A DNA stretch of 64,000 nt, from contig JAUYOW010000135.1 of the NCBI GenBank assembly GCA_030697825.1, positions 8,556-72,555 on the forward strand, in the 5' to 3' direction. Origin of the DNA: Gemmatimonadales bacterium (GTDB taxonomy: Bacteria > Gemmatimonadota > Gemmatimonadetes > Gemmatimonadales > JACORV01). The position numbers and the translations under genes are program-made. Below are positions 6,804-43,403 of this stretch, piece after piece. Under the pieces are notes generated by a model. The model was not told the origin of the DNA and made no database searches. It worked only from the letters and a program-made list of their open reading frames with translations. Within the stretch, counting starts at the first letter, position 1; each line of letters starts with the position of its first letter.

Positions 6804-9373
6804 GGAAACTCCGCTTCGTGCTCGCGCTCGCCTGGCGCGAGAGCCGTGCCTCGCGCCGCCGACTCCTCCTCTTCGCCTCCGCCATCTCGCTCGGCGTCGG
6901 CGCACTCGTGGCCATCGGCTCGTTCACGGCGAACCTCGAGCGCGGAGTGCGCTCCCAGGCGCGCGAGCTCCTCGGCGCCGACCTCGAGCTGGGCAGCAGC
7001 CGGCCGTTCTCGCGGAACCTCGAGGCCGTCCTCGACTCCGTTACCCGCGCCGGCGCGCGCGTCGCGCGCCGATCCAGTTTCTCGTCCATGGCGTACGTGA
7101 GGCGCACCGAAGGGATCCGCCTCGTCGACGTCCGAGCGGTGGGCCCGGGCTTCCCGTTCTACGGTGACGTCGTGACGAGCCCCGCGGGCCGCTGGCGCGC
7201 GCTCGACACCGCGCGCGTGGCGATCGTGGACACCAGCCTCCTGGTCGCGCTGAACGCGCACGTCGGTGACACGCTCGAGATCGGCAGCGCTCAGTTCCCG
7301 ATCGCCGGCGTCGTTTCCGAGGTGCCAGGCCATGTCACCGGCGGACTGAACGCCTTCGGCACGCAGGTCTACATCCCCATCCGACACGTCCCCGCCACCC
7401 GCCTGATCGTCTTCGGCAGCCGGGTGCGGAACCACGCCCTGATCAAATTCGCCGACCCGCGGGACGTGCGACGCCTGATCATCCGCCATCGCGCGCTCTT
7501 CAACCGCGAGCGCGTCGGTGCGCAGACCGCGGACGAAACCCAGTCCGAGATCACGGGCGTCCTCGACAACCTCTCGACCTTTCTACAGTTCGTGGGGCTG
7601 ATCGCGCTACTCCTGGGCGGCATCGGCGTGGCGAGCGGCGTCGGCGCGTTCGTCGCCGGCAAGATCGATACCGTCGCGACGCTCCGCTGCCTGGGCGCCG
7701 GCCGGCCGCTGGTCTTCGCGGTCTACCTCACCCAGGCCGCCGTGCTCGGCCTCATCGCCGCGACCGCGGGGGCCGGCCTCGGGGTCGGTACGCAACTCAT
7801 GCTCCCGTGGCTGCTCCGGGACCTCCTCCCGGCGAACGTGCGGTTCCGCCTGGAGCCGGACGTCGTACTCGGCGGGATCGGGGTCGGGGTCGCGGTCGCC
7901 GTGCTCTTCGCGCTGCGCCCGCTCCTTGAAGTGCGCCTGGTGTCCCCGCTCCAGGCGATCCGCCGTGCCTATGAGACCGCCCCGGTGCGCGCGCGGGATC
8001 CATGGCGCCTTGCGGCCCAGGGCTTGGTCGCCATCGGCGTGCTCGCGCTATGCATGTACCGCAACGACGAACCTCGGGTCGGGCTGGGGTTCGCGGTCGC
8101 CATCGGGCTCTCCGTGGGGATCCTCGCACTGTCCGCGCGCGGCGCGGTCGCGCTCGCCCGCCGCGTCACCCGCGGGCCGCGGTTCCGCGCCAGCTGGCCA
8201 TACGTCGTCCGCCAGGGGCTCGCCAACCTCCACCGGCCGCGCAACCAGACCCAAAGCGTCGTGATCGCGCTCGGCTTCGGCGTGGGACTGCTGTCGGCGC
8301 TTTACCTGGTGCAGGCCAACCTCATGAGCTTCGTGCGCGCCAGCACCGCCGCGGTGCACGGCCGCCCTAACCTCGTCTTCATCGACATTCAGAACGACCA
8401 GGACTCGGGCGTGAGGAGCCTGGTGCGCGACGCCGGCGCCCCGCTGCTCCAGGTCGTGCCCATCGTGCCGATGAAGATCGCGGCGGTCAACGGCCGGTCG
8501 AAGGAAGACCTGCTCAAGGACACTTCCCGTGCGGCGCCCCGGTCGTGGACGCTGCGGCGCGAGTACCGCTCGACCTACCGCGACAGCGGTGTGGCATCCG
8601 AAAGACTGGTGCGCGGCGCTTGGTGGACCGGCCGCGGCGAGGCCGCGCCGGGAATGCCCTTCCCCGTCTCGCTCTCCACCGACCTCGCCACCGACCTCCA
8701 CGTCGGCGTCGGCGATGCGATCACTTGGGACGTCAGCGGCGTGACGGTCCAGACCCGGGTGGTGGGGCTGCGGGAGGTGGACTGGGCGCGCTTCGAGACC
8801 AACTTCTTCGCGGTCCTGAGCACGGCGGCGCTCGAGCGAGCGCCCCGGTCGTACGTGGTCCTCACGCGGATGGACGACGCTGGGGCGCGGGCCCGGCTCC
8901 AGCGTGCCGTCAGCGAGCGGTTCCCCAACGTCACCAGCTACGACGTGGCGCTCCTCCAGCGCACGGTGGAGCGGATCCTGAGCCGCGTCGCCCTCGCGAT
9001 CCGCTTCATGGCGGTGCTGAGCCTGGGCACCGGCGCGCTGGTGCTGCTGGGCGCCGTCGCCGCGGGACGGCTCGAGCGCATCCGTGAGGGCGCGCTGCTC
9101 AAGGCCCTGGGCGCCACTCGCCTCCAGATCGAGCGCATCTTCCTCGCCGAGTACCTGGCGCTCGGGGCCCTGGCCGCACTGGTCGGGATCGGCCTGGCGA
9201 GTGGGGGGGGGTGGGCCTTCACGCACTACGTGCTCGAGCTGCGCTTCTCCGTCCCCGCCCCCGCGATGTTCGCGGTCTTCGGAGTCACCACCCTGCTCGT
9301 GACGGTCGTGGGGATGACGGCCAGCCGAGAGGTATTCCGGAGGACCGCCATGGAGGTGCTGAGGGATGTCTAG
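6800..9373 (+). CDS. FtsX-like ABC transporter permease (YbbP-like, duplicated FtsX domains)
   Basis: 857 aa. 4-nt overlap with the upstream ATPase gene. Multiple TM clusters are separated by large soluble loops, as in YbbP/MacB-type permeases. Confidence 0.8.
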   Translation: MRKLRFVLALAWRESRASRRRLLLFASAISLGVGALVAIGSFTANLERGVRSQARELLGADLELGSSRPFSRNLEAVLDSVTRAGARVARRSSFSSMAYVRRTEGIRLVDVRAVGPGFPFYGDVVTSPAGRWRALDTARVAIVDTSLLVALNAHVGDTLEIGSAQFPIAGVVSEVPGHVTGGLNAFGTQVYIPIRHVPATRLIVFGSRVRNHALIKFADPRDVRRLIIRHRALFNRERVGAQTADETQSEITGVLDNLSTFLQFVGLIALLLGGIGVASGVGAFVAGKIDTVATLRCLGAGRPLVFAVYLTQAAVLGLIAATAGAGLGVGTQLMLPWLLRDLLPANVRFRLEPDVVLGGIGVGVAVAVLFALRPLLEVRLVSPLQAIRRAYETAPVRARDPWRLAAQGLVAIGVLALCMYRNDEPRVGLGFAVAIGLSVGILALSARGAVALARRVTRGPRFRASWPYVVRQGLANLHRPRNQTQSVVIALGFGVGLLSALYLVQANLMSFVRASTAAVHGRPNLVFIDIQNDQDSGVRSLVRDAGAPLLQVVPIVPMKIAAVNGRSKEDLLKDTSRAAPRSWTLRREYRSTYRDSGVASERLVRGAWWTGRGEAAPGMPFPVSLSTDLATDLHVGVGDAITWDVSGVTVQTRVVGLREVDWARFETNFFAVLSTAALERAPRSYVVLTRMDDAGARARLQRAVSERFPNVTSYDVALLQRTVERILSRVALAIRFMAVLSLGTGALVLLGAVAAGRLERIREGALLKALGATRLQIERIFLAEYLALGALAALVGIGLASGGGWAFTHYVLELRFSVPAPAMFAVFGVTTLLVTVVGMTASREVFRRTAMEVLRDV

Positions 9374-9424: not shown

Positions 9425-9904
9425 CTAGGAGAGCCCCGGGAAGCGGTAGTACAGGTCCCCGTTGTCGTCCGAGTCCGTCTCCACGAAGCCGTTCACCGCC
9501 ATCTCGTTGAGCTGGCGCTGCACTTCCTTGAAGCCGCGGCCCGTCGCGGCCACCGCCTCGGCGACCGTCAGCTTGCCGCCGTTCTTCTCCGCCGCCGTCA
9601 CCAGCGACACTTCGAACTCCTCCGTCGTCCGAGGCGCGCGCCGGCCTCCGGCAGGCAACGCCCCCGCCACACCACCGGCCGCCAGCGCCTGCTGGCCAAG
9701 ACCCTGGATCAGGAGGCGGTTGTTGGCGTCCTCGATCATCCCTGGGATGAGGAACAGGTCGATGAACTGGCCGACGCCGAAGAGTCCGAGCGTGAAGAGG
9801 TAAAGGAGCCCGGTGCCGAGCTTCCCCGCGTAGATGCGCTGAAGGCCGCAAACCCCGAGGAAGCTCGCGGCCCAGAGGATGTAGGCGGTGTTCTTGTCCT
9901 TCAC
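9425..9904 (-). CDS. TM2 domain-containing membrane protein with a C-terminal soluble domain
   Basis: 159 aa. N-terminus KNTAYILWAASFLGVCGLQRIYAGKLGTGLLYLFTLGLFGVGQFIDLFLIP matches the TM2 domain pattern (two helices, G..G..RFY.G). Confidence 0.7.
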   Translation of the reverse strand: MKDKNTAYILWAASFLGVCGLQRIYAGKLGTGLLYLFTLGLFGVGQFIDLFLIPGMIEDANNRLLIQGLGQQALAAGGVAGALPAGGRRAPRTTEEFEVSLVTAAEKNGGKLTVAEAVAATGRGFKEVQRQLNEMAVNGFVETDSDDNGDLYYRFPGLS

Positions 9905-9936
9905 GTCTGAAAAGATAAGGGTGTGGGGTTTAGAGG

Positions 9937-9978
9937 GGGTAGGGTGTAGAAAGCACCCGTACCGCCTACACCCTACCC
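9937..9978. terminator. 13-bp perfect inverted repeat (GGGTAGGGTGTAG / CTACACCCTACCC), likely terminator hairpin downstream of the 10000..10209 gene
   Basis: Arms at 9937-9949 and 9966-9978 with a 16-nt loop, embedded in G-tract/C-tract heptad repeats. Confidence 0.5.
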
Positions 9979-17555: not shown

Positions 17556-18430
17556 GGGACCTCCGCCCGCGCGATCGAGGCCAGCAGCCCGCCCGGCGCG
17601 TCGAAGAGCGCCGCCAGCAGCGTTGCCAGCAGCGCGATCCAGAGGGCGGCGAAGACCGGCACGAACCGGCGCCGCACCCCCAGCATTTCCGGGAAGCGCA
17701 TCGGCTTGCCGGTGAACTTGCCCGGGGCCTCCAGCGGCGAACCGAACTTCTTGTGCGTCTCGATCGTCGCGATCGTTAGGCCGAGGGCGCCGAAGGCGAC
17801 GGCGAGATAGCTGGTCGTGAACGACGACAGCACCAGACCGTACGCCGTCGCGAGCGCCGGACTACGGAAGAACTTCAGGAGCTGGAATCCCTCCTTGGGA
17901 GCGTCCTTCCACGCGCCGCCGAAGGCCGAGATCCAGCCGCCGATGCTGCCGACCACCAACACCATGCCCAGCGGGAAGACCGCCGTCCCGGCCGGCTCCA
18001 GCCACCCCAGCCCCAGGACCACGAGCGCGACCGCCGCGGCGCAGCCGATCCCGGCTGCCGCGCGGACCCGCCGGCTCGATACGACCCTGCCGACCACCGC
18101 GAACTGCATAGGGATGAAGTACTTCGACTGGTCCTCTTCGCGGATGAACGTCTTGTGCCACTCGACGAGGGCGCGCTCGAGAACGTAGGCAAGCCCGAAG
18201 AGCAGGACGGCGTCCCCAGGCGTGCCGGGATCGAAGCGCATCAGCAACTGGATCAAGACCGCGGACCCTGCGCCGACGATCACGCTCCGGCAGTACTTCC
18301 GCGCGCTGAACCCTTCGTACAAGGCGTCCTTGTACATCCCCCAGGTGGCGACATGGAGTCCGCTCGCCGCGCCGATCAGGGCCGCGGGGACCACCCCAAA
18401 GCTGGTGGAGGCTGCGAGGAACCATGACAT
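17552..18430 (-). CDS. Integral membrane protein with an internal two-fold repeat, unknown family
   Basis: 292 aa. The motif W(G)xYKDAxxEGF(x3)K(Y/F)xRS occurs twice (WGMYKDALYEGFSARKYCRS and GGAWKDAPKEGFQLLKFFRS), each followed by TM helices. Confidence 0.55.
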   Translation of the reverse strand: MSWFLAASTSFGVVPAALIGAASGLHVATWGMYKDALYEGFSARKYCRSVIVGAGSAVLIQLLMRFDPGTPGDAVLLFGLAYVLERALVEWHKTFIREEDQSKYFIPMQFAVVGRVVSSRRVRAAAGIGCAAAVALVVLGLGWLEPAGTAVFPLGMVLVVGSIGGWISAFGGAWKDAPKEGFQLLKFFRSPALATAYGLVLSSFTTSYLAVAFGALGLTIATIETHKKFGSPLEAPGKFTGKPMRFPEMLGVRRRFVPVFAALWIALLATLLAALFDAPGGLLASIARAEVP

Positions 18431-21668: not shown

Positions 21669-22421
21669 TTGAGGAGTAGCTTTGTGACACAAAGCGCTTT
21701 ACACGTCGCCATCATCATGGATGGCAACGGCCGCTGGGCCACCCATCGCGGCCGCCCGCGCGCCCTCGGCCATCACGCCGGGGCGAAGGCGGTGCGGCGG
21801 ATCGTGGAGGCCGCGCCGGACCTCGGGATCACCACGCTCACGCTGTACGCGTTCTCCGGCGACAATTGGAGCCGACCGCCCGGCGAAGTCACCGCCCTGA
21901 TGCTGCTCTTCCTCAAGTACCTGAGGTCGGAGACGGCTACGTTCGTCGCCAACGGCATCCGCCTCTCCGTCATCGGCCGGCGCGACCGCATCCCGCCCGA
22001 AGTGCGCCGGGCGATCAGCGCGACGGAAGCGGCGACCGCGGCGGGGCGCGCGCTGCACCTGCGCATCGCCATCGACTACTCCGCGCGCGACGCGATCATC
22101 GGCGCGACGGCCCGCGCCGTGGAGGAGGCCCGCGCCGGCAACGGCGCTGGAACTCCCCCGCTCACCCGCGAGTCGTTCGCGCGATTACTGGGAGACGCGA
22201 CGCACGCCTTCGAGCCCGCGGCGGACGTGGACCTCCTGATCCGCACCGGCGCCGAGCAGCGGCTCAGCGACTTCCTGCTGTGGGAGTGCGCCTACGCGGA
22301 GCTGACGTTCAGCAGGAAGATGTGGCCCGACTACACGGCCGCGGACCTCGCCGCCGCGCTCGATGAGTTCAGCGGGCGCGAGCGTCGCTTCGGCGGGATA
22401 GGGAGGTTCGCGGCGGGATGA
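21669..22421 (+). CDS. uppS: Isoprenyl transferase / undecaprenyl-diphosphate synthase
   Basis: 250 aa. [23 protein letters not shown], ...[26 protein letters not shown]... are hallmark cis-prenyltransferase motifs. Confidence 0.9.
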
Positions 22422-22482
22422 TGAGCGACCATGTCGCCGCCGGCCCGAACCACAGCGCTCGCACGTGTTAGGCTACCCCATT

Positions 22483-22725
22483 TCACGCGAGGTCAGCCAG
22501 ACGGACACCGCGGCCGCGCCGCAGCGCCTCTCGTGCCCCAGCGACCTGCTCGAGGAACTCGGGATGGTGTTCCAAGCGGTACTCGAACCAGGCCTCCTCG
22601 GTGTCGAATCCGATCAGCACGCCAGCCGGGCGCCCGTGCTTCGTAATCACGATCTCCTCTCCTGCCGCCTGTCGCAGATACCGAGAGAAATCGTCCTTAA
22701 CTCGCGCCAGCGCCACCTTCTTCAT
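22483..22725 (-). CDS. Type II antitoxin, Phd/YefM family
   Basis: 80 aa. MKKVALARVKDDFSRYLRQAAGEEIVITKHGRPAGVLIGFD... is the classic Phd/YefM N-terminus. It lies downstream of, and overlaps by 29 nt, a RelE/ParE-like ORF. Confidence 0.8.
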   Translation of the reverse strand: MKKVALARVKDDFSRYLRQAAGEEIVITKHGRPAGVLIGFDTEEAWFEYRLEHHPEFLEQVAGAREALRRGRGVRLADLA

Positions 22726-23014
22726 CGGGCGTTCCCTCCTCTTTTAGCCAGGTCTCCGCCTGCGCCTTCGTCACGATGGCGAGAACCTCGACCCGCTTCT
22801 CCCCGACGTCGTAAAACACTCGTATATCCCCGACGCGCAATCGAAACTGCGGCTGCGCCAGTCCGCGGAGGCGCTTGATGCGACTCTTGCTAACGCGCGT
22901 GGGCTGGTGGGACAAGTGCCGGTCCATGGCATCCCGCACGACCGCCCGCAGGTTGGCCTTGAGCGCTCGGTACTGAGCCACCGCAGTTGGGGCGAGGATG
23001 ACCTCGTACGCCAT
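22697..23014 (-). CDS. Type II toxin, RelE/ParE superfamily (toxin-first gene order)
   Basis: 105 aa. ...RIKRLRGLAQPQFRLRVGDIRVFYDVGEKRVEVLAIVTK... matches the RelE/ParE core (YRLRVGDYRVIY...V.I..I..R). Confidence 0.75.
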   Translation of the reverse strand: MAYEVILAPTAVAQYRALKANLRAVVRDAMDRHLSHQPTRVSKSRIKRLRGLAQPQFRLRVGDIRVFYDVGEKRVEVLAIVTKAQAETWLKEEGTPDEEGGAGAS

Positions 23015-23073
23015 TCTGGCCAGAAGATAGCTACACTAGGATGGCCGGGCAAGGGGAGCCGGCGAACGGGGCA

Positions 23074-23299
23074 GCCTAACGAACAGGGTTTAGCTGCGGG
23101 CCGGCGCGTTGGCCGCGCTGGCCCCGCGTTACGCCGCCACAGCTCGCGAACCCAACATGCCAGCGCGGCCAGCCGGCCTCGTCAGCTACAACCCGAGCCT
23201 GTGCGAAAACACCGTTCTGAGCACCCCTAAGTTGTTGATTTACAACGCTGCCACTGCTGCCAAAGTGGCGTTTTCACACAGGCTCACCCGTAGTTAGGC
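23074..23299 (-). other. attC-like recombination site (R'' GCCTAAC ... R' GTTAGGC) interrupted by a 91-bp palindromic insertion
   Basis: GCCTAAC starts 1 nt after the ParE stop and GTTAGGC ends the site. Inner stem arms 23159-23194 / 23086-23122 are homologous to the site at 42364-42489. Confidence 0.5.
23195..23285. mobile_element. MITE-like 91-bp element with 19-bp terminal inverted repeats, flanked by a 4-bp direct repeat ACCC
   Basis: TIRs gagcctgtgcgaaaacacc (23195-213) and ggcgttttcacacaggctc (23267-285), 17/19 complementary. ACCC at 23191-94 and 23286-89. The interior is AT-richer than the surroundings. Confidence 0.4.
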
Positions 23300-23300
23300 G

Positions 23301-23594
23301 TTACAGGCGACTCTGCCACTCGCGCGGATCCCGACGCGCATGCAGAACTGCTAGAATCGCAATGCGCCCCGGTGTCGGCACGTAGTAGACGGAGAACGGA
23401 AAGCGGCGCAACCTTGCGCGGCGTGCATCTGGGGCGACCAGTTGATAGCCCTGAGGCATGCGTTGAATGAGGCCGAAGCAGACATCGACAGCACGCAAGA
23501 ACTCGGTGCCTAGCCCCGCAGCGCGGGTTTCGTACCACTCGGCAGCGAGCAGCATGTCCGTTTCGGCCGCTGCCCGGATCAGAAGGGTGGGCAT
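23301..23594 (-). CDS. Type II toxin, ParE/RelE family
   Basis: 97 aa. ...AAEWYETRAAGLGTEFLRAVD...RRARLRRFPFSVYYV...RIAILAVLHARRDPREW is a typical ParE-like toxin. Confidence 0.8.
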   Translation of the reverse strand: MPTLLIRAAAETDMLLAAEWYETRAAGLGTEFLRAVDVCFGLIQRMPQGYQLVAPDARRARLRRFPFSVYYVPTPGRIAILAVLHARRDPREWQSRL

Positions 23595-23810
23595 TTACCT
23601 GATGAGCTTGTACAGCCGCTCGCGTACCTGTTCCCAAGGAATGCCTGCTTCAGGGTGAGCGCGGTAGTCTGCCAGTCGCCGCTCGAGCTCTTGGAGATGC
23701 CACTCGGGGACTGGGATTTGCTCGTCGTCGATGCTATCCCAGAGATCCTCCACGAGCTGGAGGCGCTCCGGGACAGACAGGTGGCTGAAATCCATGAGTT
23801 TGGGTGCCAT
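23595..23810 (-). CDS. Addiction-module antitoxin (putative addiction module component family)
   Basis: 71 aa. LSVPERLQLVEDLWDSI...WHLQELERRLADYRAHPEAGIPWEQVRERL is the signature of this small antitoxin family. Its stop abuts the ParE start. Confidence 0.75.
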   Translation of the reverse strand: MAPKLMDFSHLSVPERLQLVEDLWDSIDDEQIPVPEWHLQELERRLADYRAHPEAGIPWEQVRERLYKLIR

Positions 23811-24085
23811 GGGCTCAATCTGGTGGGCGGACTGCCGGCTGGCAAGTGACGCAGATCCGAGACCGCATGGCCGGGACCATGTCCGTTCGGGTGGCTTCCT
23901 CTGTGACGCCTAACTTGTAGTTTACCCTACTTGTCTTCCAGTCCGGGGCGACGTTCGCGTGATAGCTCGGCCTACGCCGTGCTTATGCGACAAACCGGCG
24001 TATAACTCGGCCCGCAACAATACGACGCCCCGCCCCAACCCGCCAGCCGGCCGGCCAGCGGCGACGCACTAGAACCAGGACCGGG

Positions 24086-24661
24086 CTATGCCCTCGGCCA
24101 GAGCCAGCCGAAGCACCCTGCCGTCAGCAGCCCGTAAGCCACGCCGTCCACGGCGCCGAGCCAGAAGCTCCTCCACGGCCGCCCGAACCAGATCGACTCC
24201 GGCACCGTCCCGAAGACATAGGACATGACCGCCACCGTGCCGATCACCCGAAATACCGCGAGGTAGTCGGCCCCGCTGTCCAGCCCGGAGTGCCGCGCCA
24301 CGTATGCGACGAAGATCGAGACGATGAGGAAGAAGACGAACTGCTGGCCCATCATCTTGCCCATGTTCATCGGTCCCCTGGGCCAGATCGTCACCGTCCC
24401 GGACGGCCCTTCCGCCCACCGCTTCATGGCCTCAGGCGACCGGCGCTCCTTGGGATCCTCGACCCACGGGATCATGTACTGACCGGCCGCCGGGGCGCTC
24501 TTCTTGAGCGCATCCATCACGCCGTCCTGTCCCGGGAGCCCCAACCATTCGCTCTTGTGGTGCGGCATCACGGTCCAGGCCAGCGCCGAGGCAACGAACG
24601 CCAGGAACGCCGACAACAGGATGGGTGCCCACAGGACGCCGATGAACCCGACGTACGTCAT
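24086..24661 (-). CDS. Hypothetical integral membrane protein
   Basis: 191 aa. An N-terminal TM, a soluble loop, then 3 TM helices. No family recognised. Confidence 0.55.
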   Translation of the reverse strand: MTYVGFIGVLWAPILLSAFLAFVASALAWTVMPHHKSEWLGLPGQDGVMDALKKSAPAAGQYMIPWVEDPKERRSPEAMKRWAEGPSGTVTIWPRGPMNMGKMMGQQFVFFLIVSIFVAYVARHSGLDSGADYLAVFRVIGTVAVMSYVFGTVPESIWFGRPWRSFWLGAVDGVAYGLLTAGCFGWLWPRA

Positions 24662-40783: not shown

Positions 40784-40809
40784 GCGCCTATGCCTAAGCG
40801 GATAGGCGC
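40784..40809 (+). terminator. 8-bp hairpin (GCGCCTAT / ATAGGCGC, 10-nt loop GCCTAAGCGG) downstream of the SnoaL-like gene
   Basis: Read directly. There is no U-tract, so terminator function is speculative. Confidence 0.25.
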
Positions 40810-40931
40810 CGGGTGGGCGGGCCGGCTTGCCCGGTTGGTGGCGTGAGCGCACCTTGAACGGCGTCGCTGCGACCGGCCCGGGGGAACGGTGGCGCCGGCG
40901 CCGGCCGCTGCATATCATCGCGAGTCTTGCA

Positions 40932-41027
40932 GGCTAACTCGGCTACGGGGCCGAGCTATCACGCGAGCTTCGCAGCGGTTGTGGTTTTGGACGTGAAGCC
41001 CAATTGCTAGTAAAGACCTGGTTAGCC
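40932..41027 (+). other. attC- or attI-like site preceding cassette 1 (GGCTAAC ... GTTAGCC)
   Basis: The terminal 7-mers are exact reverse complements, and the complementarity extends outward (TGCAGGCTAAC / GTTAGCCAGGCA). There is an internal hairpin CTCGGC-TACGGG-GCCGAG. The inner arms are otherwise poorly paired. Confidence 0.35.
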
Positions 41028-41031
41028 AGGC

Positions 41032-41466
41032 ATGGCGACAGACCACGCACTGAAACTGGGGAAGCTTGTTGGCAACCTCCAATCCCTGGAGGCGGTTCTT
41101 CGCGTCTATCTGCTCAAGATTGGGGAGAAACCGAGACCGGCGAAGCAACAGTCGCATTCGTATTGGGATCTCGTCGTCGGCGACGTAATCAACGCTGACG
41201 AATTCTCGAACTACGACACCCTCGGCACTCTCGTCAGGAAATTCAACGACGACGTCCGCCCGCGCGACACCTCACTATGCGTCGACCCCGCAGTGGTAGA
41301 CGTTCGCGATCTGCTGGCTCACGGACGTGTCGCTGGCTCAGCCGACGACACGGCGACCTTGATGATCGTGAAGTTCGACAAACCGTCCGCCGGGACAGTG
41401 ACAGTGGTGGCGAGCGCCCTGAATGGACGACGCCTGGTTTGCCGCGAACGTCGCATTATCTTATGA
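41032..41466 (+). CDS. Cassette 1 ORF, hypothetical protein (144 aa as listed; 3' end probably frameshifted)
   Basis: Track ORF. The last ~15 residues (NGRRLVCRERRIIL) look out-of-frame, whereas the +1 frame from 41423 reads MDDAWFAANVALSYEQLIRVGKALERYAA and stops at the TAA inside the GCCTAAC box. Confidence 0.5.
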   Translation: MATDHALKLGKLVGNLQSLEAVLRVYLLKIGEKPRPAKQQSHSYWDLVVGDVINADEFSNYDTLGTLVRKFNDDVRPRDTSLCVDPAVVDVRDLLAHGRVAGSADDTATLMIVKFDKPSAGTVTVVASALNGRRLVCRERRIIL

Positions 41467-41506
41467 GCAACTCATCAGGGTCGGAAAGGCACTCGAGCGG
41501 TATGCG

Positions 41507-41604
41507 GCCTAACTTCCGGACGAACCCGATGGCGGAGTCGATTCCCGTTTCGCCGTGGCAACGCGCGTGCCGGCTCCACCCACGGGTTATCCGGCGCGTT
41601 AGGC
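41507..41604 (+). other. attC-like recombination site, 98 nt, canonical architecture
   Basis: GCCTAAC-TT-CCGGA-CG-AACCCG ...(variable)... CGGGTT-A-TCCGG-CGC-GTTAGGC. It has R and L box pairing, an unpaired spacer and extrahelical bases. It starts 41 nt after the ORF stop. Confidence 0.7.
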
Positions 41605-41631
41605 GGCCCGCTAGAGATCGAGGACTGTCCG

Positions 41632-42330
41632 TTGGACGCGATTGACTGGAGAAGGATTGTGCGCTACTTGCCTTCATCGTCCCAATGGCGTAACTGGAGC
41701 CTTCCCAGCCGATTGACGGCGATAGGCGCGGCGATTTCAGTCGTTTCTCTCATAGTAGCTGTTGTGCTTGCATTGCTCGACCAAGCTGCGGATCGGAGCC
41801 GCGCTCGCTTGATGGAGGAGGAAGCCGAGCTACGAAGTCGGCTCGAGTCCGCTGCCCTATCATCAGTTCAGGGCAAGCAGGACGAGCAGTTCCTTGCGCT
41901 CCTCTCGGCGCTCGCGGTGCTTATTGGTGAGCAATCTTCTCTCTCTAGCCGAGTGGCCGATACGGTCACTTTTTCCGGCACAGGCGTTGGCGAGTTCCCG
42001 ACCGGTCTCGCAGTTCTGTCGCGAGTCTTTCAGCAGGATTACCCAGGTGTAGCGAACGACGAGTTGCTTGTCGAGATCGTTGTCGGGTTACCTTCTCCTT
42101 CCGGGCAGAACGACGCACGCCCTGGGGTGCTCGTACAGATTCACCAGCAGGGCTTAAGCTACGAGACGAACGTCTTTCGCGTTGGTGAGCTCGAGCCCCA
42201 TGTTCTCATGCGGGCCCTCGCTGCGGCTGGATTACGCGTGTCCTCAGAGGTCGCGGCCGAAGGCGGCGTCTGGGTCACGATATTCGACCCCGCAAACGGG
42301 AAATCTGCAAGACTTCGAGCGCCGTCTTGA
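41632..42330 (+). CDS. Cassette 2 ORF, single-pass membrane protein of unknown function (start TTG 41632 or GTG 41659)
   Basis: 232 aa. One TM (LTAIGAAISVVSLIVAVVLALL), a charged coiled-coil-like stretch, then a ~130-aa C-terminal domain. No family recognised. Confidence 0.55.
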   Translation: MDAIDWRRIVRYLPSSSQWRNWSLPSRLTAIGAAISVVSLIVAVVLALLDQAADRSRARLMEEEAELRSRLESAALSSVQGKQDEQFLALLSALAVLIGEQSSLSSRVADTVTFSGTGVGEFPTGLAVLSRVFQQDYPGVANDELLVEIVVGLPSPSGQNDARPGVLVQIHQQGLSYETNVFRVGELEPHVLMRALAAAGLRVSSEVAAEGGVWVTIFDPANGKSARLRAPS

Positions 42331-42363
42331 ATCGATGCCCTGAGGCCAGTCTCCGGGTGGGCC

Positions 42364-42489
42364 GCCTAGTTAGGATTTGAACCTGCGGAGCCGGCTGGCC
42401 GCGCCGGCGACCAGGCGGTAAGTGGTTCAGGAACCGCGCACCGGCGCGGCCACGACGCCGGCTCACAGGTTAAAACCACTCTGTTAGGC
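42364..42489 (+). other. attC-like recombination site, 126 nt (degenerate R'' GCCTAGT, R' GTTAGGC)
   Basis: Long imperfect palindrome with arms at 42373-42408 and 42441-42477. It is homologous, with compensatory changes, to the site at 23074-23299 on the other strand. Confidence 0.6.
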
Positions 42490-42523
42490 AGCAGCGGTTA
42501 CTCACACGCACCTAGGCGGCACC

Positions 42524-42940
42524 ATGACCGCGTGGCTCATTCTCCTAATCATCTTCGTTGCCGGGTGTATCGGTGGCATTACCAATGCGGCGATTGCTGG
42601 CGAGTTGCGCTTGCCGTACACCGATCCCGAAGCGCGGGTCTACAGGCCTGGCTGGGTCGGGAACGTGCTCATAGGGGGCATAGCGGCTCTCGTCTTCTGG
42701 GGCCTATACGGCCCGATGGCCGCGGCAGTTCTCATGGGCCCTATCGATCCGGCGGCTCCGCAGCCTCTACTTCGAGTCTCTGAGCTGTTCGCGGCATTGC
42801 TCACGGGAATCGGCGGCGGTAGACTACTTACTGCGGAGGTCGAACGGCGCGTGTTCGATAGAGAGAAGAAGGCCCTCACCGATACGAAGGACGCTCTTGC
42901 AACTGCTGTTAAGAGCCTTGCTGAGGAGGTAAGACAATGA
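42524..42940 (+). CDS. Cassette 3 ORF A: small 3-TM glycine-zipper-rich membrane protein with a C-terminal amphipathic helix
   Basis: 138 aa. TM segments WLILLIIFVAGCIGGITNAAIAG, WVGNVLIGGIAALVFWGLYGPMAAAVLMG, LFAALLTGIGGGRLL. ATGA overlap with ORF B. Confidence 0.6.
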   Translation: MTAWLILLIIFVAGCIGGITNAAIAGELRLPYTDPEARVYRPGWVGNVLIGGIAALVFWGLYGPMAAAVLMGPIDPAAPQPLLRVSELFAALLTGIGGGRLLTAEVERRVFDREKKALTDTKDALATAVKSLAEEVRQ

Positions 42941-43389
42941 CGGACGGCACTCCAAAGGCACCCGATATCGATGCAATTGAGCTTATCGAAACGCTCGCAA
43001 CCCAGATCCCGAGCTCCAGTTCCTTTACCTCGGCAAGCCTAGCCCAACAGATCCTGGAGCAAACCCGTCGGCTCCACGCCTTCCGCAGTGCCCTCGTGGT
43101 TGGCCGCGAGGCGGGCGCCAAGGCCCACGAGATGGTCGAGGCGCAGGTACAGGAGGCGGAGGTCGGGAAGACCTACCAAGGCAAGGTGAAGACGACGACG
43201 GCCTTCGGGGCGTTCGTCGAGATCTTGCCCGGGGTGGAGGGACTGGTCCACATCTCGGAGCTCCAGCACGGCCGCACCGAGAAGACCGAAGACGTCGTGA
43301 AGAAGGGCGACTCGGTCACGGTCAAGGTGCTGGAGGTCGACGAGCACGGGAAGATGAGGCTCTCGCGCAAGGCGGTGCTCGAGAAGTAG
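42937..43389 (+). CDS. Cassette 3 ORF B: chimeric protein, novel ~55-aa N-terminus fused to a PNPase-like linker plus S1 RNA-binding domain
   Basis: The C-terminal AEVGKTYQGKVKTTTAFGAFVEILPGVEGLVHISEL...GDSVTVKVLEVDEHGKMRLSRKA is an S1 domain closest in style to the PNPase C-terminus. Codon usage switches at about nt 43100. Confidence 0.6.
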   Translation: MTDGTPKAPDIDAIELIETLATQIPSSSSFTSASLAQQILEQTRRLHAFRSALVVGREAGAKAHEMVEAQVQEAEVGKTYQGKVKTTTAFGAFVEILPGVEGLVHISELQHGRTEKTEDVVKKGDSVTVKVLEVDEHGKMRLSRKAVLEK

Positions 43390-43403
43390 GACCTCCTACT
43401 GAA

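What the first reader, a model, noticed from the sequence alone, without database searches (positions are those of the whole stretch)
22467..23914. Two toxin-antitoxin pairs packaged as core-site-bounded cassettes between uppS and a membrane protein gene
Read on the minus strand the order is:
- GTTAGGC (23914-08);
- antitoxin 23810..23595 plus ParE 23594..23301;
- GCCTAAC starting 1 nt after the ParE stop (23299-93);
- GTTAGGC (23080-74);
- RelE-like 23014..22697 plus Phd 22725..22483;
- GCCTAAC 9 nt after the Phd stop (22473-67).

The last site has no matching GTTRRRY before the uppS stop, so it appears truncated. TA pairs are the classic stabilising cargo of chromosomal integron arrays.

The second pair has toxin-first order with a 29-nt overlap, which is unusual for Phd/YefM partners.
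Basis: partly seen in the sequence, partly recalled or inferred. Interest (0 to 1): 0.6.

Follow-up and report, generated by a model that had tools for sequence, protein, structure and literature searches.

The report
Two toxin-antitoxin integron cassettes beside uppS
The two toxin-antitoxin gene pairs wedged between uppS and a membrane-protein gene are genuine integron gene cassettes in a small array with no integrase beside it. This is a well-known kind of mobile element, documented here in unusual detail, but not a new one.

Summary

**The sites are real.** All four 7-mers sit where stated. Four in 1.45 kb is about 1e-5 by chance.

**The spacer is an attC.** The 226-nt spacer between the pairs is a canonical 131-nt attC. 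A 91-nt MITE with a GGGT target duplication interrupts it. A covariance model built only from attC sites elsewhere in this genome finds it.

**An integrase exists, but elsewhere.** The genome encodes a full integron integrase on another contig.

**Relatives and strains agree.**
- A same-genus relative has the two flanking genes 12 nt apart, an empty site.
- Metagenome contigs from other strains carry the same cassettes with different neighbours.
- Homology breaks at G|TTAGGC in these contigs.

**Both pairs are common cassette cargo.** Homologues of both recur across the order as attC-bounded cassettes. The toxin-first order of pair 2 is conserved in 12 of 12 loci.

**The array ends.**
- The array starts with a species-specific, multi-copy, attI-like leader.
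- It ends in a truncated attC. This fits pair 2 lying next to uppS wherever the contig reaches that far.

**Earlier work.** The scan had already reported this attC family, the MITE and neighbouring arrays on other DNA of this genome.

**Verdict.** This is a new member of a known kind, of modest interest.

The parts
24086..24661 (-). Flanking core gene: DUF1761-like membrane protein, co-directional with the cassettes.
   Evidence: PF08570, weak; syntenic and convergent with uppS in relatives.
23915..24085 (-). Leader, or attI-like junction element: one ~95-nt repeat unit plus GGACTGGAAGACAAGTAGGGTAAACTACAA, ending at the first core site.
   Evidence: repeated at C162, C18 and C271; conserved up to G|TTAGGC, then five different continuations; always 3' of a core gene.
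23908..23914 (-). First core site GTTAGGC (R'-type crossover point G|TT).
   Evidence: homology of L040 to the window starts exactly at 23914, and homology of L037 ends at 23905.
23080..23913 (-). Cassette 1 (TA1), 834 nt including the MITE, from the TT of the first core site to the G of the next.
   Evidence: found as a unit in other contexts (L038-L041); homologous pairs are attC-bounded in at least 10 of 15 loci.
23595..23810 (-). TA1 antitoxin, TIGR02574 / PF09720 family, 71 aa.
   Evidence: 81 and 76 bits.
23301..23594 (-). TA1 toxin, ParE family, 97 aa.
   Evidence: 22.2 bits; 11 of 13 homologues hit PF05016; the homologue profile hits PDB 8c26 ParE2 at 2.7e-10.
23074..23299 (-). attC of cassette 1: a 131-nt canonical attC plus the 95-nt MITE insertion.
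   Evidence: 28.4 bits, E 1e-4, despite the interruption; the bottom strand folds into R box, L box with two single-base bulges, and a long stem (z about -7).
23195..23285 (.). 91-nt MITE inside the L'' arm, flanked by GGGT duplications at 23286-23289 and 23191-23194.
   Evidence: 7 copies in the genome at 98-100% identity, with 4-bp duplications at the same attC position; empty site in L040.
22422..23079 (-). Cassette 2 (TA2) with truncated terminal attC. Its 5' boundary at 23079/23080 is fixed by strain comparison. Its 3' limit is uncertain by about 45 nt.
23016..23029 (-). -10-like TATCTT plus palindrome CTGGCCAG abutting the toxin ATG: candidate cassette-borne promoter and operator, possibly for a leaderless transcript.
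   Evidence: conserved in 4 homologous cassettes; no sigma-70 consensus hit, so this is inference only.
22697..23014 (-). TA2 toxin, RelE/ParE superfamily, 105 aa, encoded first.
   Evidence: 23.4 bits; 10 of 10 homologues hit PF05016; weak PDB matches to aRelE and RelE.
22483..22725 (-). TA2 antitoxin, Phd/YefM family, 80 aa, overlapping the toxin gene by 29 nt.
   Evidence: the order is conserved in 12 of 12 loci.
22435..22473 (-). Truncated attC of cassette 2: R'' GCCTAAC plus an L''-like arm (AGCGCT-G-TGGTTC-G-GGCCGGCGG). There is no L' or R'.
   Evidence: sequence; no model hit; contrast with full attCs after Phd in L045, L049, L050 and L054.
21669..22421 (+). Flanking core gene uppS, convergent with the array.
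   Evidence: 235 bits; the tail ...[14 protein letters not shown] is native, as in relative G003.

Best explanation
The 1.66 kb between the convergent core genes DUF1761 and uppS is a small integron cassette array with no integrase beside it. The genome is most likely Gemmatimonadales.

**Layout, read on the minus strand:**
1. An attI-like leader ending in G|TTAGGC.
2. Cassette 1: TIGR02574-type antitoxin plus ParE toxin.
3. The attC of cassette 1, 131 nt, now split by a 91-nt attC-targeting MITE.
4. Cassette 2: RelE/ParE-like toxin first, then Phd antitoxin.
5. A terminal attC that has lost its L'-R' half.

**How it got here (inferred).** The cassettes were delivered and shuffled by an integron integrase acting in trans. 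A full intI lies on contig C6. Recombination crosses over at G|TT of the core sites.

**What the cargo does (inferred).**
- Both pairs are addiction modules, probably with their own promoters.
- They resist loss of the DNA that carries them.

**Mobility now (inferred).**
- Cassette 2 can no longer be excised, because its attC lacks R'.
- Cassette 1 may be impaired by the MITE.
- The leader core site would then be the array's one intact recombination site. Cassettes upstream of cassette 2 differ between strains.

**Shown:** the anatomy, the attC family membership, the empty site and the strain-level breakpoints.
**Inferred:** integrase activity in trans, toxicity and neutralisation, promoter activity, and loss of mobility.
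For: **attC family.**
- Thirteen sites elsewhere in the genome share one structure. 91.5% of cells are paired and 15 pairs show compensatory changes.
- The model built from them hits window 23204-23074(-) at E 1e-4. It also hits two sites in a second array of the window and about 35 sites genome-wide.

**Fold polarity.** The bulged bases sit on the R''/L'' arm of the bottom strand. The top strand is therefore the coding strand of the toxin-antitoxin genes.

**Integrase.** TIGR02249 scores 412 bits (cut-off 265) at C6:6789-7730, with attCs downstream.

**Empty site.** In same-genus G003 the DUF1761 stop and the uppS stop are 12 nt apart.

**Strain contigs.**
- TA2 plus uppS is 97-100% identical in 8 contigs. 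Three different attC 3' arms abut G|TTAGGC.
- The same attC arm is followed by G|TTAGGC plus TA2 in L036. In this genome's C31 it is followed by G|TTATAC plus another cassette.
- In L040, TA1 follows a different attC, and homology starts exactly at 23914. In L040 the attC of TA1 lacks the MITE.
- In L037, DUF1761 plus leader is followed by a DinB cassette instead of TA1.

**Cargo type.**
- TA1-like pairs occur in 54 of 300 genomes of the order. They are attC-bounded in at least 10 of 15 loci inspected.
- TA2-like pairs occur in 13 of 300, several between two attCs.

**Cassette-intrinsic pairing.** The complementarity beyond the 7-mers matches the cassette's own other end. It does not match the neighbouring site in the array (and the sequence).
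Against: - No integrase lies on this 93-kb contig, so any recombination must be in trans and is unproven.
- The model score of the attC is modest (28 bits), because the MITE separates R'' from the rest.
- The leader-to-TA1 junction is supported only by this metagenome-assembled contig. A co-occurring strain has DinB at that position.
- The two toxins are only borderline Pfam matches on their own sequence.
- No consensus promoter was found.
Confidence: 0.9

Rival explanations
1. The 7-mers are chance occurrences, and the two pairs are ordinary chromosomal toxin-antitoxin loci that arrived by unspecified horizontal transfer.
For: The 7-mer is not enriched genome-wide. Two unrelated copies exist in the window, at 17775 and 33630.
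Against: - The local Poisson probability is about 1e-5.
- The site between the pairs matches an independent attC model.
- Strain breakpoints fall on the 7-mers.
- Homologous pairs are attC-bounded in many genomes.
Confidence: 0.01
2. Each pair is a small transposon-like unit bounded by 15-16-nt terminal inverted repeats and moved by a transposase rather than by an integron integrase.
For: There are inverted repeats of 15 and 16 nt at the ends of each unit (I5 and I6). The genome does contain active small transposable elements.
Against: - No target-site duplications flank either unit (sequence).
- The two units share only the outer 7 nt, which equal the R boxes of the genome's attC family.
- The junctions in other strains are with attC 3' arms, and the switch is at G|TT.
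- The inner complementarity is what a circular cassette intermediate predicts.
Confidence: 0.03
3. The cassettes are real, but the two-cassette arrangement is partly an assembly artefact. In this reading the assembler joined strain variants across repeated attC or leader sequence. The true locus would then hold a longer or different array, for example DinB first and C31-like cassettes before TA2.
For: - L037, from the same run as the 100%-identical L032, shows DUF1761-leader-DinB.
- L029 and L036 link TA2 to sequence that lies on contig C31 in this genome.
- The assembly has 333 contigs, many of them breaking at attC or leader repeats.
Against: - L037 is only 98.8% identical to the window, whereas L032 is 100% identical, so L037 is a different strain.
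- L032 independently carries the TA1-specific attC 3' arm joined to TA2.
- The 5' and 3' arms of that attC are mutually complementary, which ties TA1 to TA2.
Confidence: 0.12

Closest known systems
Toxin-antitoxin cassettes of sedentary chromosomal integrons, for example the ParDE, RelBE, HigBA and Phd-Doc cassettes of the Vibrio cholerae superintegron (Richard et al. 2024, PMC13108822).
   Same: Type II toxin-antitoxin pairs packaged as single cassettes with their own attC. They are thought to carry their own promoter and to penalise cassette loss. A ParE-family toxin is involved.
   Different: - The array here has only two cassettes, no adjacent integrase, a MITE-split attC and a truncated terminal attC.
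- The host is Gemmatimonadales, not Vibrio.
- Function is untested.
CALIN: clusters of attC sites lacking an integron-integrase (Cury et al. 2016, PMC4889954).
   Same: A cassette array with no intI nearby, in a genome that encodes IntI elsewhere. It may be a product of erosion or of integration away from the platform.
   Different: - Only one complete attC is present (the formal rule needs two).
- The array begins with a conserved attI-like leader found at three or more loci. I did not see this discussed for CALINs in the passages of PMC4889954 that I searched.
IS1111-attC group and other attC-targeting insertion elements.
   Same: A mobile element that inserts at one fixed position within attC sites.
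   Different: - This element is a 91-nt non-autonomous MITE with a 4-bp target duplication, inserted in either orientation.
- From memory, IS1111-type elements make no duplication and insert in one orientation.
I did not test that.
HigBA and other toxin-first type II systems.
   Same: A RelE-superfamily toxin encoded upstream of its antitoxin.
   Different: - The antitoxin here is Phd/YefM-type, not an HTH-XRE HigA.
- The genes overlap by 29 nt.
- A -10-like box abuts the toxin ATG. In Synechocystis, leaderless toxin-antitoxin loci all have reverse gene order (PMC4963859).

Membership tests
Integron gene cassette | attC with inverse core RYYYAAC (R'') and core GTTRRRY (R') as the ends of an imperfect palindrome. 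| tested here: met
   GCCTAAC at 23299-23293 and GTTAGGC at 23080-23074. The bottom strand folds with a 7-bp R box.
Integron gene cassette | L box with extrahelical bases on the R''/L'' arm of the bottom strand, which sets polarity. The ORF lies upstream of the attC on the top strand. | tested here: met
   GGGTT-G-TAGCTG-A-CG pairs with CGCAGCTAAACCC. Two single-base bulges are spaced 6 nt apart. The top strand is the coding strand of the toxin-antitoxin genes.
Integron gene cassette | Recognised by an attC covariance model. | tested here: met
   My own model R1, built from 13 non-window sites, gives 28.4 bits and E 1e-4. IntegronFinder's curated model was not available.
Integron gene cassette | Presence or absence, or change of neighbour, as a unit with the crossover at G|TT. 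| tested here: met
   three different upstream attC arms before TA2, L040 homology starting at 23914, and TTAGGC versus TTATAC after the same attC arm.
Integron gene cassette | Recombined by an integron integrase. | not testable with these tools
   A full intI is present on contig C6. Its activity was not assayed.
Complete integron | intI adjacent to the attI site and the cassettes. | tested here: not met
   No TIGR02249 match on contig C132, which is 93 kb long.
CALIN (IntegronFinder definition) | At least two attC sites with no intI nearby. | tested here: inconclusive
   The locus has one complete but MITE-split attC, one truncated attC (R''-L'' only) and one attI-like core site.
attI site (for the leader 24085-23908) | Conserved sequence on one side and variable first cassette on the other, joined at G|TTRRRY. 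| tested here: met
   Five different continuations follow G|TTAGGC. L043 shows canonical cassettes with attCs following directly.
attI site (for the leader 24085-23908) | Adjacent to intI and bound or recombined by it. | tested here: not met
   All three genomic copies lie next to core genes, not intI. Binding is not testable here.
ParE toxin (PF05016), TA1 toxin | Profile match at or above the gathering score. | tested here: inconclusive
   The window protein scores 22.2 bits against a cut-off of 23. Eleven of 13 homologues match, best 1.3e-9. The homologue profile hits PDB ParE2 8c26 at 2.7e-10.
RelE/ParE superfamily (PF05016), TA2 toxin | Profile match at or above the gathering score. | tested here: met
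   23.4 bits against a cut-off of 23. Ten of 10 homologues match. PDB matches to aRelE and RelE are only E 0.1-0.5, so RelE versus ParE activity is undecided.
Phd/YefM antitoxin (PF02604, TIGR01552) and TIGR02574 antitoxin | Profile match above the cut-off. | tested here: met
Type II toxin-antitoxin system | The toxin inhibits growth and the cognate antitoxin neutralises it. | not tested
   This needs expression assays.

The most novel reading that the evidence does not exclude
The ~170-nt leader that opens this array may be an 'orphan attI'. It would be a species-specific docking site, copied to at least three chromosomal loci directly 3' of co-directional core genes. A single integrase encoded elsewhere would insert cassettes there, and read-through from the core gene would express them. 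One integrase would then feed several dispersed mini-arrays, rather than one array beside its own gene.
Probability: 0.3. Interest if true: 0.6.

Novelty: new member of a known kind. Interest (0 to 1): 0.33.

Why it matters
Toxin-antitoxin cassettes are thought to police cassette loss in large chromosomal integrons. Almost all evidence for this comes from Vibrio.

**What this locus adds.**
- A clean natural example in Gemmatimonadales.
- The cassette boundaries, an empty site, a MITE-free allele and strain-level reshuffling at G|TT can all be read directly from public data.

**What it suggests.**
- Cassettes can become fixed chromosomal genes: here by loss of the 3' half of the terminal attC, and perhaps by MITE insertion.
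- Integrase-less arrays may keep a working entry site.

None of this changes the current picture of integrons. It adds a documented case and one testable idea, the orphan attI-like leader.

Tried and rejected
**Closed or empty.**
- An exact 19-mer of the leader in genome contigs gave nothing. In metagenome contigs it gave one true hit (L043) and one chance hit in unrelated AT-rich DNA (L042).
- The leader was not found in 26 other genomes of the family.
- Rfam found nothing in 22300-24200.
- The sigma-70 promoter and terminator scans found nothing.
- The exact ParE1 protein is not on record in the assemblies index.

**Considered and dropped.**
- Part of the terminal attC might encode the uppS tail. 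This is rejected, because the same-genus relative has a homologous tail of equal length.
- A 13-nt inverted repeat near both ends of the insert (I13) might mark a transposon. It is not supported: it is one of 47 GC-rich pairs and is absent from the other leader copies.

**Weak.** A profile-profile comparison of the two toxin families gave only 13.6% probability.

**Not run.** I did not predict structures, because the diverse homologues came from genome-search loci, which that tool does not accept.
Full report
**Observation.**
- The four 7-mers, the four ORFs, the 1-nt and 9-nt spacings and the 29-nt overlap are all exactly as described.
- Pfam and NCBIfam name the products as follows:
  - a TIGR02574/PF09720 antitoxin plus a ParE-like toxin (pair 1);
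  - a RelE/ParE-like toxin followed by a Phd/YefM antitoxin (pair 2).
- GTTAGGC is not enriched genome-wide: 282 copies in 3.37 Mb.
- Four copies in 1.45 kb, in alternating orientation around each pair, has a probability of about 1e-5. The window as a whole has 9 against 2.8 expected.
- Each pair is flanked by 15-16-nt inverted repeats that contain the 7-mer.
- The extra complementarity lies inside the cassette. It matches the cassette's own far end, not the neighbouring site in the array. This is what a unit that passes through a circular form predicts.

**The spacer is an attC.**
- A genome-wide scan for RYYYAAC...GTTRRRY hairpins found a clear family of sites on many contigs. They have the form GCCTAAC-n-AGCGCTT-G-CAGCTG-n-CG...CGCAGCTGAAGCGCnnnnGTTAGGC.
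- Thirteen of them, none from the window, align to one structure. 91.5% of cells are paired and 15 pairs show compensatory changes.
- The covariance model built from them gave three hits in the window:

| Window position | Strand | Bits | E-value |
|---|---|---|---|
| 42364-42489 | + | 51.9 | 2.5e-10 |
| 41507-41604 | + | 39.3 | 2.7e-7 |
| 23204-23074 | - | 28.4 | 1e-4 |

- It found about 35 sites in the genome.
- The site between the pairs is 226 nt long because a 91-nt palindromic MITE sits in the L'' arm at 23195-23285, with a GGGT duplication.
- Six further MITE copies at 98-100% identity occur in the genome. Five of them lie at the same attC position, in either orientation, each with a 4-bp duplication. 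The context of the sixth (C80) was not examined.
- A metagenome contig (L040) carries the same cassette at 96.8% identity with the uninterrupted sequence GCCTAACTATGGGTTGTAGCTGACG. This is the empty site for the MITE.
- With the MITE removed, the bottom strand folds into a textbook attC. It has a 7-bp R box, an unpaired spacer, an L box with two single-base bulges on the R''/L'' arm, and a long terminal stem.
- With the MITE in place, the same fold persists and the MITE forms a side hairpin.
- The polarity of the bulges puts the top strand on the coding strand of the toxin-antitoxin genes, as in normal cassettes.

**Integrase.**
- TIGR02249 scores 412 bits (cut-off 265) at C6:6789-7730, with attCs just downstream. 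A second copy seems to be split over the ends of C243 and C278.
- None lies on the window's 93-kb contig.

**Relatives.**
- DUF1761 and uppS are convergent neighbours across the family.
- In the same-genus genome G003 their stop codons are 12 nt apart. Its uppS tail is homologous to ours and of equal length. The whole 1.66 kb here is therefore an insertion.
- Other genera have either a short gap or one unrelated ~220-aa membrane-protein gene there.
- The best named relatives of UppS are Gemmatimonadales and Gemmatimonadota MAGs.

**Strain variation.**
- The exact TA2 toxin is on 9 public contigs, mostly from groundwater.
- Seven of the eight contigs shown reach uppS, and all seven have the same TA2-uppS junction at 97-100% identity. 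The eighth (L034) ends inside Phd.
- Upstream of GTTAGGC (23080), three different attC 3' arms occur.
- One of these arms is identical to C31:8776-8838 of this genome. There it is followed by G|TTATAC and a different cassette. In L036 it is followed by G|TTAGGC and TA2. This is the expected signature of crossover between G and TT.
- TA1 occurs in L040 after a different attC, with homology starting exactly at 23914. In L038 and L039 it occurs in front of another Phd/ParE pair.
- L037 has DUF1761 and the leader at 98.8% identity up to 23905, then a DinB cassette instead of TA1.

**Cargo type.**
- TA1-like pairs (antitoxin first) occur in 54 of 300 genomes of the order. Only one of 26 genomes of the window's own family has one. 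At least 10 of 15 inspected loci have an attC right after the toxin.
- The TA1 toxin profile hits PDB ParE2 at 2.7e-10.
- TA2-like pairs occur in 13 of 300 genomes and in none of the three other genomes of the genus.
- TA2-like pairs are toxin-first in all 12 loci inspected, and several of these lie between two attCs.
- Full attCs follow Phd in L045, L049, L050 and L054. Here only R'' and an L''-like arm remain before uppS. It also fits TA2 lying next to uppS in every strain contig that reaches that far.
- A conserved palindrome with a -10-like box abuts the toxin ATG in this family. This hints at a cassette-borne promoter for a leaderless transcript.
- Promoter-containing toxin-antitoxin cassettes are the rule in chromosomal integrons (PMC13108822). 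Leaderless toxin-antitoxin loci in Synechocystis have reverse gene order (PMC4963859).

**The array start.**
- The 170 nt between the DUF1761 stop and the first GTTAGGC is not an attC. It is a repeated element: a ~95-nt unit, tandem at C162 and C18, followed by GGACTGGAAGACAAGTAGGGTAAACTACnA.
- It is conserved right up to G|TTAGGC and then continues in five different ways. One of these (L043) is a run of canonical cassettes with attCs.
- All three full genomic copies lie directly 3' of co-directional core genes.
- The element is absent from the 26 other genomes of the family.
- A second leader type opens the window's other array (40792-41025). Its last ~25 nt resemble the site next to intI on C6.
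- That C6 site is shared with C139 up to G|TT.
- I therefore call the element attI-like. It is not beside an integrase, so I do not file it as an attI.

**Caveats.**
- The TA1-attC-TA2 link has independent support:
  - L032 carries the TA1-specific 3' arm joined to TA2.
  - The two arms of that attC are complementary.
- The leader-TA1 junction rests on this contig alone.
- Integrase activity, toxicity, promoters and loss of mobility are all inferences.

**Comparison and verdict.**
- This is the known phenomenon of toxin-antitoxin cassettes in chromosomal integron arrays, in an integrase-less, eroding mini-array of the CALIN kind (PMC4889954).
- Earlier notes of this scan had already reported the attC family, the MITE and the neighbouring arrays in this genome. 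My results agree with them independently.
- It is a new member of a known kind, well documented and of modest interest.
- The orphan attI-like leader is the one point worth an experiment.

Noticed in passing
window 23195-23285; also C80:11538-11628, C31:4879-4969, 9135-9225 and 9879-9969, C277:124-214, C218:65356-65446: A 91-nt palindromic MITE is present in 7 copies at 98-100% identity. In the five copies whose flanks I read (the window, C277, C31:4879-4969, C31:9879-9969, C218) it sits at the same spot in the attC L'' arm, in either orientation, with 4-bp duplications (CGCT, CGTT or GGGT). C31:9135-9225 abuts a further attC hit and C80 was not examined. L040 gives the empty site.
   Followed up: partly
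window 23908-24085; C162:103-321(-); C18:8273-8478(+); C271:8908-8964; L043:1-124: A species-specific leader built from a ~95-nt unit (tandem at C162 and C18), conserved up to G|TTAGGC and then followed by different cassettes. It always lies 3' of a co-directional core gene: DUF1761, a Ser/Thr kinase, or an MBL-fold protein.
   Followed up: partly
window 40792-41025 (+); C159:1683-1909; C271:8744-8895; C48:7342-7449; C6:7730-7926; C139:5616-5808: A second leader type opens the window's other array. Its last ~25 nt resemble the site next to intI on C6. C6 and C139 (which carries an intI C-terminal remnant) are 95% identical up to G|TT and then diverge, which marks a likely true attI.
   Followed up: partly
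window 41032-43400 (+): A second integrase-less cassette cluster, on the opposite strand and 17 kb away, with attCs at 41507-41604 and 42364-42489. The two arrays point away from each other.
   Followed up: partly
L031:5-1900: In another strain, the attC upstream of TA2 is interrupted by an element that encodes a 514-aa Mu-type transposase. The element has four copies of an end motif (CGAAACGGnTGTCCGAC).
   Followed up: no
L029:1-1187 matching own-genome C31:7410-8596; L029:792-836: In other strains, TA2 is directly linked to sequence that lies in the large array on contig C31 of this genome. That sequence includes a 45-nt tRNA-gene fragment matching C82:5440-5484.
   Followed up: no
L054 / L069 (genome G033, a different family): A TA1-like cassette and a TA2-like cassette lie adjacent in the same order as here, each with its own attC, at 50-69% protein identity.
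   Followed up: no
window 23016-23029; L049, L050, L052 and L054 upstream of the toxin ATG: A conserved palindrome with a -10-like box (TCTGGCTATAnTnTGGCCAGA) directly abuts the start codon of the TA2-type toxin. This suggests an operator and a leaderless transcript.
   Followed up: no
L011, L012, L014, L016, L018 (other genera of the family): The uppS-DUF1761 gap holds a conserved ~220-aa membrane-anchored protein gene in these genera. It is absent from this genome and from G003.
   Followed up: no
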